A stretch of 12,482 bases of DNA from Promethearchaeia archaeon (GCA_029856045.1 JAHQWG010000055.1:1-12482); one strand, 5' to 3'; positions 924 through 7,429 are shown, counted from the stretch's first letter. Notes: a model not told the origin generated them from the letters alone. Numbers and translations: made by a program.

Positions 924-1358
924 ATGAAAATCTTTAAAGATAATAAATTATTTTTTAAAAAGTATTGTGTTTTAATCCTAATATTGAATTTTATAGTTTT
1001 GGGTATTTCCTTAATTTTATACCCATTGTTATTTATCGGGATAATAGTTCCAGTTTTTGGTAATATTTTTGGTGTCTTATTTTTATGCAATATCTTTATA
1101 AATTTACTATTTGTTCAAATAAATTCTAAATTTTTAATAAAAACTAATGATAAGGGTAAGATTTTAAATCGAGTAACATATTGCTATCTTTTCTTTTTAT
1201 TATTCGGAGTTTTACCATTATTTTCTATCTCAGGACCAGTAGTAATTCAAAATTATATTATTTCTCTAGTAATATATCTATTTCCTATAATTATTAGCTA
1301 TTATGAACTTAAAATAATTGATAAAAAAGAGGGGATCTTTAAATGGGAGATAATATAA
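924..1358 (+). CDS. Hypothetical integral membrane protein (about 4 TM helices)
   Basis: 144-aa ORF with four hydrophobic stretches separated by short Lys-rich loops. Overlaps the next gene by 16 nt in the same orientation. Confidence 0.72.
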   Translation: MKIFKDNKLFFKKYCVLILILNFIVLGISLILYPLLFIGIIVPVFGNIFGVLFLCNIFINLLFVQINSKFLIKTNDKGKILNRVTYCYLFFLLFGVLPLFSISGPVVIQNYIISLVIYLFPIIISYYELKIIDKKEGIFKWEII

Positions 1359-3278: not shown

Positions 3279-3953
3279 TTAGCTATATTTCTTTTTTTTA
3301 ATTTTTGTAAAAGGTTTAGAGAATTTTCTTTCACAAAAATTGTTAATGGGGCAAATTTTACATCGAGGATAAGTTGGGATACATATTTGTTGACCAAACT
3401 TTACTATTAATCCATTAGAACTCATCCATAAATCTTTTGGAATTATTTTTTTTAACTCCTTTTCAGTTTGTTCCGGCGTTTTTGTATCTACCCAACCAGT
3501 TCTATTGGATATTCTATGTACATGTATATCCACGGCAATAGCTGGGATTTTAAATGCATATATCAATACACAATTCGCCACCTTATTTCCAACTCCAGGT
3601 AATTCTATTAATTCATTAAAATCTTTTGGTACTTGTCCATTATATTTTTCTAATATTATCTGAGAAACTTGTTTAATTCTCTGAGCTTTCGTTTTATAAG
3701 TTCCTGAAACGTAGATTAATTCTTCAATATCTTCTAAATCTGCTTCAGCGATCATTTTAGGGGTATTATATTTTTTGAATAAATTATCAGTTGCAGCTGA
3801 AGTATTTTTATCTTTAGTTCGAACTGAAAGAATGGTTGAGATTAAAATTTTATAAGGATCAATATTTTTAGGAGTTCTCTGGACTAGTTCATCCAAATGG
3901 GATAATCCATTCAAAGATTGCTTTATTTTTTTAAAAATTTCATAAAAGTCCAT
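3279..3953 (-). CDS. nth: Endonuclease III (HhH-GPD DNA glycosylase/AP lyase, 4Fe-4S)
   Basis: ILSVRTKD, HhH motif LPGVGNKVA with catalytic Lys, VDIHVHRI with catalytic Asp, and C-x6-C-x2-C-x5-C (CIPTYPRCKICPINNFC). Confidence 0.95.
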   Translation of the reverse strand: MDFYEIFKKIKQSLNGLSHLDELVQRTPKNIDPYKILISTILSVRTKDKNTSAATDNLFKKYNTPKMIAEADLEDIEELIYVSGTYKTKAQRIKQVSQIILEKYNGQVPKDFNELIELPGVGNKVANCVLIYAFKIPAIAVDIHVHRISNRTGWVDTKTPEQTEKELKKIIPKDLWMSSNGLIVKFGQQICIPTYPRCKICPINNFCERKFSKPFTKIKKKKYS

Positions 3954-3968
3954 AAAAATCCGAAAATT

Positions 3969-5381
3969 TTATTTATTATTATCTAATTTTTGGAAGATGT
4001 AAAATTTGCGTTTTATAATTTGATTTTTTTTAGATTCAATAATCGATTTTAAGCTATTTAGGTTTAATTGAAGTAATTTATTAGATTTACTAAAAATTCT
4101 ATTTTTTTGGAATATTGGAATTAAATGCAATTTATGTTTTTGAGCGATTTTTTGAAGAGGGAGTTGGACTTCAAGATTTTCAACGGTTTCAATTACGGGT
4201 GAAGTTAAACATAATCTCTTTCCTGGTTTAAGTAATTTATATGATATTTTCATTAATTCTTCAAAGTTGGGTCGAATTTTTGTATCTAATAAATTCTCTG
4301 CATCTTTAAAGTCTGGTTTATTTTTATAAAAAGGGCCAAATATAGGTTCTGTGCATATTCCATCAAAGGACGATTGGTTGAAAACATTTATAAGCTCTTT
4401 AATATCCACTTTTTTAATTCTTTCTTTAAAATTTGGTATATAATCCTCTTCTAATATCTTCCCAACCCATTTTAAATTCTTTACAGTTTGTTCAACGTAT
4501 TTATTTTCAATGTCAGCTCCATATACTTCAAAACCATTAATATGTGCAAAAATGAGAATTGTTCCTGAACCACAAAATGGATCAAGGATCCTTTTGGATT
4601 CTTTATTTTCATAAAGGTTTAAGAAATTAAGCATAATTTTAGCGAATTTTGGAGGAATAGATCGCTCAAAACTTGTAAAAGGACGCTTTTCATCAATCTT
4701 TTTTTGAAAATTTGGATTAGTAACTGTATATGTTCTTGCAATATAACATCCTTCTTCTGTGAAACCAAAAATTATTTCTGCACGGTTTTTCTCTAATAAA
4801 TTGTACCTAATGACATGGTGTGGAAATATTGGATTTAAATTTCCAGTATCTATATTTCTTTGAGGATATTTATAAAAAATATTTTTTTTTGCATTCCTTT
4901 CTTTTAATAATCTTGAAATATTTTCATTTAAATAGGGCAAAAAATGCTTAATTAATATGGATTTATAATAATCATCAATATAAAGATTTGGATAAATTGA
5001 AACCGCAAAAAAGATGTTTTCATTTTCAATTTTAGGGAAAATTTCTGGTAATAAATCATTTAACTTTTTAGATATATTCGTTCTAAAAGGTTTAATTTTT
5101 TTATAGGCAACTACTAATTCAGGAAATGCTGATTTTACCTTAGAAATGTCAATAAAATCTAGAATCACTGCAATTTTTAATATTCCTCCAAGATTAAATT
5201 GTAACAATTCCAAATCATTAACATATGTTTTGGGATTTAAGCCCTCTTCAATTTCTACTATTGCAATATTAGCTGAATAATCAATAATTCGACCTTTAAA
5301 CGGTGGATTTCTTAAAATAAGATCAATTTCTGCTAAAGATAAATGCCAATTAGAACCAAGAACTAGTAGAAATCTTTTCAT
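3969..5381 (-). CDS. Trm11/Trm-G10-like (THUMP + class I SAM) RNA methyltransferase
   Basis: N-terminal LGSNWHLSLAEI typical of the family, RPF...SIPPKFAKIMLN pre-motif, motif I ILDPFCGSGTIL, GADI, and variant motif IV CTEPIFG. Substrate not established. Confidence 0.78.
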   Translation of the reverse strand: MKRFLLVLGSNWHLSLAEIDLILRNPPFKGRIIDYSANIAIVEIEEGLNPKTYVNDLELLQFNLGGILKIAVILDFIDISKVKSAFPELVVAYKKIKPFRTNISKKLNDLLPEIFPKIENENIFFAVSIYPNLYIDDYYKSILIKHFLPYLNENISRLLKERNAKKNIFYKYPQRNIDTGNLNPIFPHHVIRYNLLEKNRAEIIFGFTEEGCYIARTYTVTNPNFQKKIDEKRPFTSFERSIPPKFAKIMLNFLNLYENKESKRILDPFCGSGTILIFAHINGFEVYGADIENKYVEQTVKNLKWVGKILEEDYIPNFKERIKKVDIKELINVFNQSSFDGICTEPIFGPFYKNKPDFKDAENLLDTKIRPNFEELMKISYKLLKPGKRLCLTSPVIETVENLEVQLPLQKIAQKHKLHLIPIFQKNRIFSKSNKLLQLNLNSLKSIIESKKNQIIKRKFYIFQKLDNNK

Positions 5382-6487
5382 TATTTATTTTTATTATCCT
5401 TTTTTTGTGCTGTATTTTCATCCGTGCCCGCAACTTTATCAATATCTGCTACTATCTCATCTATATCTATTTTTTCTCTTTTATCTCCTACCATATCTAA
5501 TATTTTATCTTCAGCCATTTTCTTTTTTACTGCAGCGGTTTTTTTTTTCTTCTCATACTCTTCCTTTTTTTTTAAACGTTCTTTTTTTGTTGTCTCAATT
5601 ATATTTTTATAATGGTCTTTAAGATATTTTAAACTAAAATTAACTACATCTGAAATAGATTCCCAATTTTGGTCTTTTAAAATATTTCTGGTCCAATGAT
5701 AGAGACTATCTTTTAACTTAATTGAAACAGCTTTTCCTCCAGAGATTTGCTCTTGAGATAACCACTTAAAAATGTTGGAAATAAGCATAGAGTTATCTAA
5801 TGCTCCAAAACCATATTCTCTACTTAATGAGCTAAACATTGATACATTACCAATAGCTAATACTTTTCCTTTGTAAAATTTAGTTGCTACAAGTATAGGG
5901 ATATTAGGACAATCTTCGTGATTCCAGTTATTTCCATCATAAATTTCCCTCCAACAGTTGAGTCCACCATATGCAATTATCTCGATTTTTATATTTTTAT
6001 CTTCACTGTATTCAACAACATCAATCGAACACCCACCTGAATGCACAAATGAATTTAGATCTTCAGTTATCGAGTGATGTATGAATTTCTTGATTATTGG
6101 ACGTTTTTGCAGATTTAAATAATAAACTGAATCATTAATTCGATCTGGAGAAAATGTAAATCCAAAATCCTTTGTTAAATCAAATAAGTTAGTTTTATTA
6201 GTATGATCGCCCCCACTATTACTAATAATAAATAAACTCCCGCCTTTTTTAACGTATTCAATTAGAACTTTTATTTCTGATTCGGAATAAACAGAGTTAT
6301 AGGGGGCACCAATAATTACTAAATCATAATTTTCTAACTTTTTCACTGAATTTATTCCTGCTTCGATTTTTCCAAGCTTATACCCACTAGTGAATAAAAA
6401 TTCAACAAAATCAATAAAAGAAGGACTTTCAATAACAAGCTTATTTCCGTGGGAATAATCAAAACAAATCTTTATATCTTGACTCAT
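5381..6487 (-). CDS. GIFT (IFT52/GldG, DUF4350-like) domain protein with putative C-terminal ribbon-helix-helix domain and charged tail
   Basis: aa ~5-244: FDYSH, YDLVIIGAP, SESEIKVLIEYVKKGGSLFII, TNLFDLTKDFGF, GKVLAIGNVSMFS, DNSMLISNIFKWL. aa ~252-292 has an RHH pattern. aa 300-324 is Lys/Glu-rich. No signal peptide or TM segment visible. Confidence 0.8.
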   Translation of the reverse strand: MSQDIKICFDYSHGNKLVIESPSFIDFVEFLFTSGYKLGKIEAGINSVKKLENYDLVIIGAPYNSVYSESEIKVLIEYVKKGGSLFIISNSGGDHTNKTNLFDLTKDFGFTFSPDRINDSVYYLNLQKRPIIKKFIHHSITEDLNSFVHSGGCSIDVVEYSEDKNIKIEIIAYGGLNCWREIYDGNNWNHEDCPNIPILVATKFYKGKVLAIGNVSMFSSLSREYGFGALDNSMLISNIFKWLSQEQISGGKAVSIKLKDSLYHWTRNILKDQNWESISDVVNFSLKYLKDHYKNIIETTKKERLKKKEEYEKKKKTAAVKKKMAEDKILDMVGDKREKIDIDEIVADIDKVAGTDENTAQKKDNKNK

Positions 6488-6516
6488 AAAATTACCACAG
6501 TCTACTTAGGATTAAA

Positions 6517-6528
6517 TATGAATTCATA
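6517..6528. promoter_or_regulatory. Perfect 12-bp palindrome TATGAATTCATA, candidate operator
   Basis: Lies 30-41 nt upstream of the GIFT-RHH start and just downstream of a TATA-like element. Function is inferred. Confidence 0.4.
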
Positions 6529-6543
6529 ATATTAATTTTTTAG

Positions 6544-6560
6544 TAATAAAAGTTTTTATT
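6544..6560 (-). promoter_or_regulatory. Putative archaeal BRE/TATA promoter for the GIFT-RHH gene
   Basis: Minus strand reads AATAAAAAC-TTTTATTA: an A-rich BRE-like segment then a TATA-like box about 57 nt before the ATG. The AT-rich background weakens the call. Confidence 0.4.
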
Positions 6561-6574
6561 TTTATTCTTAACCT

Positions 6575-7429
6575 TCATTTATTTACTAATATATCAACTA
6601 CAATATGATATAACCGAGGTCCGTAGCTTTTTACAACCCTATGTTCTATGAATTCACATTGATATCCATTTTGTTGAGCCACTTTATCAAATTCATCATA
6701 TAGTTCTAAATAATTATCCTTTTCTAGAACTCCTTCATAATGAATGAATGTCCCAGAATCTTTTACACATAATAATGCAGATGAAATGAAATCCTTCGGA
6801 GCAGGAAATACAGCCATTATTATTCTATCTGCCGTAATTCCGTTTTCAGCTAATTCTTTTACTTTTTCTTTACAATTACCGAAAATCGGAATAATTTTAA
6901 ATTCTAAATGATTTAATTTTACATTTTCCTTTAGATATTCAAATGCAACTGGGTTTAATTCAATACTATAAATTAATTTTGCTTCTGAATGTATTCCAAT
7001 TGGTAAAGAAAAGTATCCGATCCCTGCAAACATATCAATTATTATTTCTCCAGGTTTTACAAGTGTTGTTAAGTATTTTCTTTCATTAAGATTTCCTTTA
7101 CTGAACATAATTTTGGTAATATCAAATTTGTATAATACACCATGTTCTTTATGAATAACAATAGAATCATCTTTTCCAGCTAGAAATTCAATCTTTTCTG
7201 GAATTCGAAATTGTCCGGTAATTTTTCCTCCATAGTAATATACAGATTCCATCTTCGGATATAATTCTAGACATTTTTTTGCAATTATGAATCGTTTTTC
7301 ATATAATTCTGATAGTAATTTTAAAAGGATTATTTTTGAAATCATTTGAAAACCACGCGGTAATTTGTCCAATTCTTCTTGAGTTAATTCCGAATTCAAT
7401 GCAATTTTTAATCGATCTTTAAAATTCAT
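6575..7429 (-). CDS. taw2: Met-10+/Trm5-TYW2 family SAM-dependent tRNA enzyme, most like archaeal Taw2 (wyosine aminocarboxypropyltransferase)
   Basis: HKEHGVLYKFDITKIMFSKGNLNER, DMFAGIGYFSLPI, IELNP, ADRIIM, IHY, VKSYGPRLYHIVVD. 284 aa without the Trm5 D1 domain or NLP motif, and IMFS is the Taw2-like form. Confidence 0.8.
   Translation of the reverse strand: MNFKDRLKIALNSELTQEELDKLPRGFQMISKIILLKLLSELYEKRFIIAKKCLELYPKMESVYYYGGKITGQFRIPEKIEFLAGKDDSIVIHKEHGVLYKFDITKIMFSKGNLNERKYLTTLVKPGEIIIDMFAGIGYFSLPIGIHSEAKLIYSIELNPVAFEYLKENVKLNHLEFKIIPIFGNCKEKVKELAENGITADRIIMAVFPAPKDFISSALLCVKDSGTFIHYEGVLEKDNYLELYDEFDKVAQQNGYQCEFIEHRVVKSYGPRLYHIVVDILVNK

What the first reader, a model, noticed from the sequence alone, without database searches (positions are those of the whole stretch)
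5612..5734. Ribbon-helix-helix domain fused to the GIFT domain: possible new one-component regulator
Seen: KAVSIKLKDSLYHWTRNILKDQNWESISDVVNFSLKYLKDH, i.e. an alternating beta strand (V-S-I-K-L), helix A, a turn, then S-I-S-D-V-V opening helix B. Known: this is the CopG/MetJ/NikR RHH pattern, which dimerises and reads DNA through the strand. Inference: a GIFT sensor or interaction domain wired to a DNA-binding dimer, an architecture I do not know to be described. Caveats: the usual helix-B Arg is Asn here, and RHH domains are more often N-terminal, so it may only dimerise.
Basis: partly seen in the sequence, partly recalled or inferred. Interest (0 to 1): 0.78.

Follow-up and report, generated by a model that had tools for sequence, protein, structure and literature searches.

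The report
RHH dimer module on Asgard GIFT protein
A cytoplasmic Lokiarchaeia-type (Asgard) protein joins an IFT52-like GIFT domain to a real but divergent ribbon-helix-helix module that most likely makes it a homodimer; whether it still binds DNA or regulates genes is not shown.

Summary
The peptide is real. It is aa 252-292 of a 368-aa ORF on the minus strand (5381-6487).

Four lines of evidence say it is a ribbon-helix-helix (RHH) module:
- Profile-profile match to RHH_1 domains of the same genome: E 2e-5, score 25. Column shuffles reached at most 14; HTH and AbrB controls scored 11 or less.
- The module folded alone (pLDDT 88) gives an almost pure list of solved RHH proteins (Z 4-6.3, 43-52 residues aligned).
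- A homodimer model passes (ipSAE 0.79, best control 0.00), with RHH-type contacts.
- The module's profile also finds small stand-alone RHH-like proteins.

The N-terminal 245 aa are an IFT52-type GIFT domain. The architecture is conserved in one Asgard order: 73 of 75 sampled genomes there, usually as a long and a short paralogue. I found it in no paper and in no precomputed Pfam list.

The "one-component regulator" reading is not established:
- Two of the usual basic residues at helix B are lost.
- The module is about neutral in charge.
- One putative base-reading position varies, including to acidic residues and proline.
- No conserved operator was found.

My best reading is a constitutive dimeric adaptor, perhaps DNA-tethered. 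First readers of this scan noted the same architecture on six other genomes.

The parts
5381..6487 (-). Whole gene: 368-aa cytoplasmic GIFT-RHH protein (P0001). Its TAA stop shares base 5381 with the ATG of the next gene.
   Evidence: 399 homologues at E<=1e-3, the best about 50% identical over 96% of the length.
5753..6487 (-). aa 1-245: IFT52-type GIFT domain (class I glutamine-amidotransferase-like fold). No N-terminal hydrophobic segment.
   Evidence: Pfam IFT52_GIFT 40.1 bits, above the 27.2 cut-off. Foldseek top hits are IFT52 N-terminal domains 5fmr/5fms, E 4e-17, TMt 0.77-0.87. Family profile against PDB: IFT52 at E 1e-13.
5735..5752 (-). aa 246-251: short linker ending in the conserved E/D-G before the ribbon.
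   Evidence: Low pLDDT at 247-254; column counts.
5711..5734 (-). aa 252-259: RHH beta-strand. K252 is conserved. Alternating hydrophobic residues 254/256/258 face inward; 253/255/257 face outward.
   Evidence: hhalign register with RHH_1 strands; column counts; residues 250-260 of both copies lie in the modelled dimer interface.
5669..5710 (-). aa 260-273: RHH helix A, with nearly invariant W265.
5657..5668 (-). aa 274-277: loop. Nearly invariant W275 aligns with the aromatic residue of the 'Y-P-N-R-S-E' motif of RHH_1.
5609..5656 (-). aa 278-293: RHH helix B (DSSP helix 278-291) with S279-D280 N-cap, N283 in place of the usual Arg, K290 and Y293.
   Evidence: Helix B to helix B' self-contacts (module residues 37:37 and 40:40) in the dimer model.
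5492..5608 (-). aa 294-332: long Lys/Glu-rich helix that continues from helix B.
   Evidence: helix 293-332; sequence.
5432..5479 (-). aa 337-352: conserved acidic amphipathic helix (R337, D341, I345 invariant in the orthologues). Function unknown.
6488..6574 (-). 87-nt spacer upstream of the gene. It holds the palindrome TATGAATTCATA at 6517-6528, which is shared only with same-genus relatives.
3969..5381 (-). Downstream gene: 470-aa Trm11/Trm-G10-like methyltransferase (P0273), the usual neighbour in the same GTDB family.
   Evidence: best PDB matches are archaeal Trm11, 5e71 and 6zxw; synteny.
3279..3953 (-). Endonuclease III (Nth), third gene of the conserved run.
6575..7429 (-). Upstream gene: Taw2/Trm5b-type tRNA methyltransferase.

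Best explanation
Residues 252-293 are a genuine but divergent ribbon-helix-helix module placed directly after a cytoplasmic IFT52-type GIFT domain. Two chains pair their beta-strands into an antiparallel ribbon and interlock helices A and B, so the protein is a constitutive homodimer carrying two GIFT domains. This much rests on models and profiles. I infer that the dimer is a housekeeping adaptor rather than a ligand-switched repressor. In this reading the ribbon, with conserved K252 and T/S/N255 and helped by the Lys-rich helix that follows, tethers the dimer to DNA with weak or low specificity. The GIFT domains and the conserved acidic helix 337-352 would then recruit partners. DNA binding itself is inferred, not shown; I put it at about even odds.
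For: RHH fold:
- hhalign against own-genome RHH_1 domains: probability 76-78%, E 2e-5, 42 columns in register. Shuffle, reversal, HTH and AbrB controls all score far lower.
- The module folded alone has pLDDT 88.
- An exhaustive VIA search of 48,161 PDB chains returns mostly RHH proteins. The matches I recognise by name include CopA-SO, NikR, ParD, PrpA, TacA, PutA-RHH with operator DNA, ORF56, omega, SvtR, AmrZ, Arc, ParG and RelB. Z is 4-6.3, with 43-52 residues aligned.
- Foldseek's top hits are ParD, PrpA, NikR and MazE9, TM 0.62-0.75.

Dimer:
- ESMFold2 homodimer ipSAE 0.79 (three runs 0.78-0.80); best of 3 controls 0.00.
- The runs share at least 94% of their contacts, and the partner's pLDDT is at least 83.
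- In the tool's calibration the mark was reached by 20 of 30 proteins solved as pairs of one chain and by 1 of 23 solved as single chains. These counts hold only roughly because my own alignment was used.
- The interface is aa 250-260, one face of helix A, and helix B 281-290 with B-B' self-contacts.
- RHH dimers are in the PDB, so the pass shows likeness, possibly from memory.

Bridge sequences: the module profile finds small stand-alone proteins in other Asgard families. For three of the six that I scanned, the best Pfam hit is full-length RHH_1, E 0.006-0.1.

Domain boundary: a 306-aa paralogue in the same genome ends 15 aa after helix B.

Leaning to nucleic acid:
- K252 is K or R in 32 of 40 and position 255 is T/S/N in 38 of 40.
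- 15-21 of the 120 best homologues end in a HeH/SAP/Rho_N-type motif.

Housekeeping character:
- 66/68 and 7/7 genomes in the two families of one order carry the module.
- It keeps about 50% identity across them.
- It sits in a fixed run with tRNA-modification and base-excision genes.
Against: - No Pfam RHH model reaches even a weak score on the single sequences; only 1 of 40 members hits an RHH-type family (BrnA, E 0.08).
- A profile search of PDB sequences finds nothing.
- Two of the basic residues of the RHH_1 'n-R-S-E-a-I-R' helix-B cap are I278 and N283 here.
- The 42-aa core is neutral to acidic: mean -0.6, range -5 to +4, against +1.2 for the own-genome RHH_1 domains.
- E or D precedes the ribbon in 27 of 40.
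- Ribbon position 257 varies to E, D and P.
- No conserved inverted repeat lies upstream.
- The dimer and both folds are predictions. The coordinates of the dimer were not available, so strand-strand pairing was not seen directly.
Confidence: 0.42

Rival explanations
1. Dimerisation-only module. The RHH fold has been kept as an interlocking homodimer, or as a protein-docking surface, and no longer touches nucleic acid. The protein is a bivalent GIFT scaffold.
For: - I278 and N283 replace two of the basic residues at helix B; the net charge is neutral to acidic; an acidic residue precedes the ribbon; position 257 tolerates E, D and P.
- The module is unusually well conserved (mean column identity 53% across an order), more like a structural element than a fast-evolving operator reader.
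- No conserved operator was found.
- The structural hit list also holds a few RHH-like chains from non-DNA complexes: a ribosome-bound factor (9e7f) and an anti-CRISPR bound to Cas7 (8ji9).
Against: - From my own knowledge, nearly all characterised RHH domains bind DNA.
- K252 and T/S/N255 are conserved.
- Net charge does not separate this module cleanly from the true RHH_1 domains of this genome, several of which are also neutral.
- Some orthologues carry HeH/SAP tails.
Confidence: 0.3
2. One reading: a one-component transcription regulator. The GIFT domain senses a ligand or partner, and the RHH dimer binds an operator to control its own promoter or the downstream methyltransferase-nth genes.
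For: - The RHH fold and dimer are supported.
- RHH fused to a non-DNA-binding domain is an established regulator design: NikR and PutA appear among the structural matches.
- A perfect 12-bp palindrome lies 30 nt before the start codon, with a one-mismatch copy 130 nt away. That makes 2 sites against 0.32 expected; 5 of 200 shuffles reach 2.
- The stop codon overlaps the start of the next gene.
Against: - The palindrome occurs only in this genome and two same-genus relatives among 122 loci.
- Upstream regions of 60 orthologues show no excess of inverted repeats: longest arm 6.13 against 5.81 in shuffles.
- No ligand is known for any GIFT domain in the papers I found. The conserved polar residues of this one are the GIFT signature it shares with IFT52.
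- Adjacency to the methyltransferase holds within one GTDB family, is divergent or lost in the sister family, and the methyltransferase occurs in a further family without the GIFT-RHH gene.
- Canonical phosphate-contact residues are lost.
Confidence: 0.2
3. Not an RHH at all: a generic helical hairpin that packs on the GIFT domain or starts the following coiled coil. The likeness would be convergent.
For: - Pfam and PDB sequence searches are negative.
- Z scores of 4-6 are within the range that small helical models reach by chance (note).
- In the monomer model the strand region is unstructured.
Against: - Most of the top 50 structural matches are RHH proteins, aligned over their whole chains including the strand.
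- hhalign aligns strand, helix A, N-cap and helix B in register, at a z-score of about 11 against shuffles.
- The dimer model uses the strand of both chains.
- The short paralogue ends just after helix B.
Confidence: 0.08

Closest known systems
CopG/Arc/MetJ ribbon-helix-helix superfamily (Pfam RHH_1, PF01402), in particular the archaeal 'Y-P-N-R-S-E-A-I-R' type found in the same genome
   Same: About 42 aa with strand, helix A, aromatic-containing loop, Ser N-cap and helix B. The alternating hydrophobic strand matches. The module is predicted to form an intertwined homodimer, and its fold superposes on solved members.
   Different: It is not detected by the Pfam HMM. Two basic residues around the helix-B cap are replaced by Ile and Asn. 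It has a Trp in helix A and in the loop. It lies inside a 368-aa protein, after a 245-aa domain, rather than at the N-terminus of a small protein. DNA binding is untested.
NikR, PutA and HicB: RHH fused to a sensor, enzyme or partner-binding domain
   Same: One polypeptide joins an RHH dimer to a larger non-DNA-binding domain. In HicB (from my own knowledge) the RHH is C-terminal, as it is here.
   Different: The partner domain here is a GIFT domain, a combination I did not find described. No ligand, toxin partner or operator is known.
IFT52 N-terminal GIFT domain (PDB 5fmr, 5fms); also Wbp1/OST48 and GldG
   Same: aa 1-245 share the fold and the signature motifs (P..E, GGS, GG-D/E, TN, FG) and, like IFT52, the protein is cytoplasmic.
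   Different: IFT52 continues into IFT88/70- and IFT46-binding regions (from my own knowledge), not an RHH. GldG and OST48 are extracytoplasmic or luminal (from my own knowledge).

Membership tests
Ribbon-helix-helix (CopG/Arc/MetJ) superfamily | Strand, helix, helix topology in about 45 residues | tested here: met
   AF2 models: extended 252-259, helices 260-273 and 278-291.
Ribbon-helix-helix (CopG/Arc/MetJ) superfamily | Fold superposes on solved RHH proteins | tested here: met
   VIA-wide: Z 4-6.3, 43-52 residues aligned, mostly RHH chains among the top 50. Foldseek TM 0.62-0.75 to ParD, PrpA, NikR and MazE9, but E is only 0.15-1.
Ribbon-helix-helix (CopG/Arc/MetJ) superfamily | Profile-level sequence similarity to RHH families | tested here: met
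   hhalign A3 against A4: probability 76-78%, E 2e-5. Shuffles reach at most 14.2 against 25.0. HTH and AbrB controls give probability below 1%.
Pfam RHH_1 (PF01402) as curated | Score above the gathering threshold of the family HMM | tested here: not met
   No RHH_1 hit at E<=10 on the query or on any of the 40 family members.
Ribbon-helix-helix (CopG/Arc/MetJ) superfamily | Intertwined homodimer with a two-stranded antiparallel ribbon | tested here: met
   In silico only. ipSAE 0.79 against best control 0.00. The interface uses aa 250-260 of both chains and helix B-B'.
Ribbon-helix-helix (CopG/Arc/MetJ) superfamily | Basic residues flanking the helix-B N-cap that contact DNA phosphates | tested here: not met
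   I278 and N283 stand where RHH_1 has Arg. N283 is present in 36 of 40.
Ribbon-helix-helix (CopG/Arc/MetJ) superfamily | DNA binding through the ribbon | not testable with these tools
   Needs EMSA, DAP-seq or a structure.
GIFT domain (IFT52/GldG; Pfam PF23355) | HMM score above the curated cut-off, and the fold | tested here: met
   40.1 bits against 27.2. Foldseek E 4e-17 to IFT52 N-terminal domains. Profile against PDB, E 1e-13.
One-component transcription regulators | A cognate operator near the regulated genes | tested here: inconclusive
   The palindrome is shared only with same-genus relatives. There is no excess of inverted repeats upstream of 60 orthologues. The test is weak because direct repeats and short sites would be missed.
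One-component transcription regulators | A sensor domain that binds a ligand | not testable with these tools
   No ligand is known for GIFT domains in the papers I found.

The most novel reading that the evidence does not exclude
An Asgard-specific class of regulator or chromatin-linked adaptor in which a cytoplasmic IFT52-type GIFT domain is wired to DNA through an RHH dimer. This would be the first GIFT domain with a DNA-linked or signal-sensing role. It could also be a prokaryotic relative of the IFT52 N-domain working in a quite different setting.
Probability: 0.2. Interest if true: 0.7.

Novelty: new variant of a known kind. Interest (0 to 1): 0.5.

Why it matters
GIFT domains sit in IFT52, OST48/Wbp1, SPRING and GldG, yet in the papers I found they have no defined molecular activity. 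Here a whole Asgard order keeps a cytoplasmic, IFT52-like GIFT protein, mostly in two paralogues, whose next module is an RHH dimer. That gives a testable handle: dimer state, DNA binding and partners. It bears both on what GIFT domains do and on a conserved but unnamed Asgard gene. A complete single-contig genome of the same order carries an orthologue, so experiments in or near a cultured relative may be feasible. If the module only dimerises, the finding is a modest annotation gain: a hypothetical protein becomes a GIFT-RHH homodimer.

Tried and rejected
- Pfam on the tail and module of the query and of five homologues: no RHH family.
- Pfam on all 40 module sequences at E<=10: no recurrent family; one BrnA hit at E 0.08.
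- NCBIfam: no family for the protein.
- Profile of the module against PDB sequences: only a chance galactanase match, E 0.47.
- ESM Atlas by features for aa 246-300: no usable hit.
- DUF5847 (a weak hit in one orthologue's tail, E 7e-4): not found in this genome nor in any control genome, so uninformative.
- Test of whether the common 'A-I-W-x-G-K' C-terminal motif of orthologues is a diverged SAP/HeH motif: hhalign probability 0.3%, rejected.
- Conserved operator: none. The window's palindrome is absent from relatives outside the genus.
- Co-distribution with the Trm11-like methyltransferase: rejected as a strict link. That enzyme also occurs in a further family (68/76 genomes) where the GIFT-RHH module was found only once, weakly. 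In the sister family the two genes are often apart.
- Net charge as a discriminator of DNA binding: not decisive, because several true RHH_1 domains of this genome are also neutral.
- Literature: five searches found nothing on GIFT domains in Asgard archaea or on a GIFT-RHH fusion.

Full report
**Observation.** The finding's coordinates read as stops on the plus strand. On the minus strand they give exactly the quoted peptide. It is aa 252-292 of a 368-aa ORF, window 5381-6487(-). The neighbouring genes are archaeal housekeeping genes:
- Taw2/Trm5b upstream.
- A 470-aa Trm11/Trm-G10-like methyltransferase downstream, whose ATG shares a base with the stop codon.
- Endonuclease III after that.

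Public records of near-identical proteins come from Lokiarchaeota MAGs and call the protein hypothetical. All 80 related loci fetched from species genomes are titled Promethearchaeota, other Asgard candidate phyla, or 'uncultured archaeon'.

**The N-terminal domain.** aa 1-245 are a GIFT domain.
- Pfam IFT52_GIFT scores above its cut-off.
- The AF2 model has mean pLDDT 82 overall, and the ten-residue blocks covering aa 11-240 are mostly near or above 90.
- Its best Foldseek matches are the IFT52 N-terminal domains, E 4e-17. After those come Wbp1/OST48, SPRING, ThuA-like proteins and the GH42 trimerisation domain.
- A profile of the family hits Chlamydomonas IFT52 at E 1e-13 and shares the GIFT signature motifs.
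- There is no signal peptide or membrane segment in the sequence.

**Is the segment an RHH?** Sequence-to-HMM methods say nothing. Pfam finds no RHH on the query, on five homologues or on 40 module sequences, and a PDB sequence search is empty. Four more sensitive tests agree with RHH.

1. *Profile-profile comparison.* I compared the family's module (A3, 40 sequences) with ten RHH_1 domains that Pfam's own model finds in the same genome.
   - Probability is 76-78%, E 2e-5.
   - 42 columns align in register: strand on strand, helix A on helix A, W275 on the aromatic of the 'Y-P-N-R-S-E' loop, the S-D cap on S-E, and helix B on helix B.
   - The score of 25.0 stands against 8.3 +/- 1.5 (max 14.2) for 200 column shuffles and 10.2 for the reversed alignment.
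   - HTH_3 and AbrB/MazE domains of the same genome scored 10.8 and 7.7.
2. *Structure search.* The module folded alone is confident (pLDDT 88.2), with an extended N-terminal segment and two helices.
   - An exhaustive structural comparison with 48,161 PDB representatives returns a list made up mostly of RHH proteins, at Z 4-6.3 with 43-52 residues aligned.
   - The matches I recognise by name include CopA-SO, NikR, ParD, PrpA, TacA, PutA-RHH on operator DNA, ORF56, omega, SvtR, CdbA, AmrZ, Arc, ParG, TraM, RelB and DinJ.
   - Foldseek's top rows are ParD, PrpA, MazE9 and NikR, TM 0.62-0.75.
   - Each single Z is modest for so small a domain. The weight lies in the uniformity of the list and in the whole-chain coverage.
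   - ipSAE is 0.79 (0.78-0.80 in three runs) against 0.00 for the best of three controls. At least 94% of contacts are shared between runs, and the partner's pLDDT is at least 83.
   - In the tool's calibration this mark was reached by 20 of 30 proteins solved as pairs of one chain and 1 of 23 solved as single chains. These counts hold only roughly, because my own alignment was used.
   - The interface is aa 250-260 of both chains, one face of helix A, and helix B 281-290 with B-B' self-contacts. That is the RHH arrangement.
   - RHH dimers are in the PDB, so the pass shows likeness and may come from memory. I could not inspect coordinates.
4. *Bridge sequences.* Searched across 301 genomes of the phylum, the module profile also picks up small stand-alone ORFs of 65-186 aa in other families. 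I scanned six. Three have full-length RHH_1 as their best Pfam hit, below threshold at E 0.006-0.1. Several share the helix-A Trp.

A 306-aa paralogue in the same genome (P0272) is GIFT plus this module and stops 15 aa after helix B, which fixes the domain boundary. One JGI record already names an orthologue an Arc/MetJ-type RHH regulator. I put the RHH fold at about 0.9.

**Distribution and architecture.**
- The module in this form occurs in 66 of 68 sampled genomes of the window's GTDB family and in 7 of 7 of the sister family in the same order.
- It was not found in the two other sampled genomes of the class. Elsewhere in the phylum it appears only as the weak small-ORF hits.
- Most genomes of the family have two copies: a long form of about 420 aa and a short form of about 310 aa.
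- After the RHH the long form has a Lys/Glu-rich helix (293-332 here), a conserved acidic helix (337-352) and then a variable tail.
- Among the 120 best homologues, about 66-81 (two regex versions) end in an orphan 'A-I-W-x-G-K' motif and 15-21 in a HeH/SAP/Rho_N-type motif. The two tails are not detectably related.
- The window's own small clade (360-369 aa) has no such tail.
- A complete single-contig 4.36-Mb genome of the order carries a 509-aa orthologue.

**Does it bind DNA or regulate?** This is inference only.

In favour:
- From my own knowledge, RHH domains are nearly always DNA binders.
- K252 is K or R in 32 of 40, and outward ribbon position 255 is T/S/N in 38 of 40.
- A Lys-rich helix follows the module.
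- Some orthologues add a SAP/HeH motif.

Against:
- The RHH_1 residues 'R-S-E-a-I-R' read 'I-S-D-v-v-N' here, with Asn nearly invariant.
- The core's mean net charge is -0.6, against +1.2 for the RHH_1 set. The two ranges overlap.
- E or D precedes the ribbon in 27 of 40.
- Outward position 257 varies to E, D and P.

On operators:
- The window has TATGAATTCATA 30 nt before the start codon and a one-mismatch copy nearby. That is 2 sites against 0.32 expected; 5 of 200 shuffles reach 2.
- Among 122 loci the palindrome is found only in this genome and two same-genus relatives.
- Upstream regions of 60 orthologues show no excess of inverted repeats, 6.13 against 5.81.

On synteny:
- The run GIFT-RHH, methyltransferase, Nth holds in nearly all loci of the family that have enough sequence.
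- In the sister family the two genes are divergent or apart.
- The methyltransferase also occurs in another family that lacks the GIFT-RHH gene.
- A 32%-identical relative keeps Taw2 and Nth nearby but not the methyltransferase.

The neighbourhood therefore gives no firm functional link.

**Verdict.** The architecture is a new variant of a known kind: RHH fused to a larger domain, as in NikR, PutA and HicB, but with a GIFT partner. The 'one-component regulator' label is not earned.
- My best reading (0.42) is a constitutive homodimeric adaptor whose ribbon may tether it to DNA.
- A dimer-only module stands at 0.30.
- A true ligand-switched regulator stands at 0.20.
- 'Not an RHH' stands at 0.08.

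First readers of this scan noted the same architecture on six other genomes. None of those notes carried a check.

Noticed in passing
own genome G000:C27:425383-426303 (L019:1504-2424, minus strand): Short paralogue P0272 (306 aa): GIFT domain plus the same RHH-like module, ending 15 aa after helix B. It lies next to a metallophosphoesterase and a thiolase. Most genomes of the family carry this second copy.
   Followed up: partly
L019:106-465 (minus strand): A 119-aa ORF made of two SH3 domains (Pfam SH3_2 at E 2e-14, SH3_1 at E 2e-7), two genes from the paralogue.
   Followed up: no
orthologues P0009-P0122 (for example the P0093 C-terminus): About 66-81 of the 120 best homologues end in an orphan motif, 'Y-T-x-E-D-I..F....K-x-A-I-W-x-G-K-x-T-K-x-F..W-L' followed by lysines. 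It matches no Pfam family and has no detectable relation to the SAP/HeH tails of other orthologues.
   Followed up: partly
window 3969-5381 (minus strand): A 470-aa methyltransferase related to archaeal Trm11/Trm-G10 only in its catalytic half (aa ~207-350). The first ~200 aa match no family. Full-length orthologues (27-34% identical) also occur in another Asgard family, in 68 of 76 genomes.
   Followed up: partly
window 6517-6528 and 6647-6658: Perfect palindrome TATGAATTCATA before the GIFT-RHH start codon, plus a one-mismatch copy inside the end of taw2. Among the loci fetched, only two same-genus relatives share the perfect copy.
   Followed up: yes
L039, L054, L070, L072, L074-L077, L080, L091, about 100-108 nt before the GIFT-RHH start: A recurring inverted repeat, AAAATTAGATAATTTT, at the taw2 / GIFT-RHH junction in a dozen orthologous loci. 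It may be the end of taw2 plus a T-rich terminator, or only shared ancestry.
   Followed up: no
L112-L116, L120 (other Asgard families): Small stand-alone RHH-like proteins (49-84 aa). Several have a Trp in helix A and one has an 'S-I-S-D-V-I-R' helix-B cap. They are the nearest free-standing relatives of the fused module, and Pfam RHH_1 sees them only below threshold.
   Followed up: partly
window 924-1358 (plus strand): A 144-aa ORF with no Pfam or NCBIfam match, overlapping the start of the alpha/beta-hydrolase gene at 1343.
   Followed up: no
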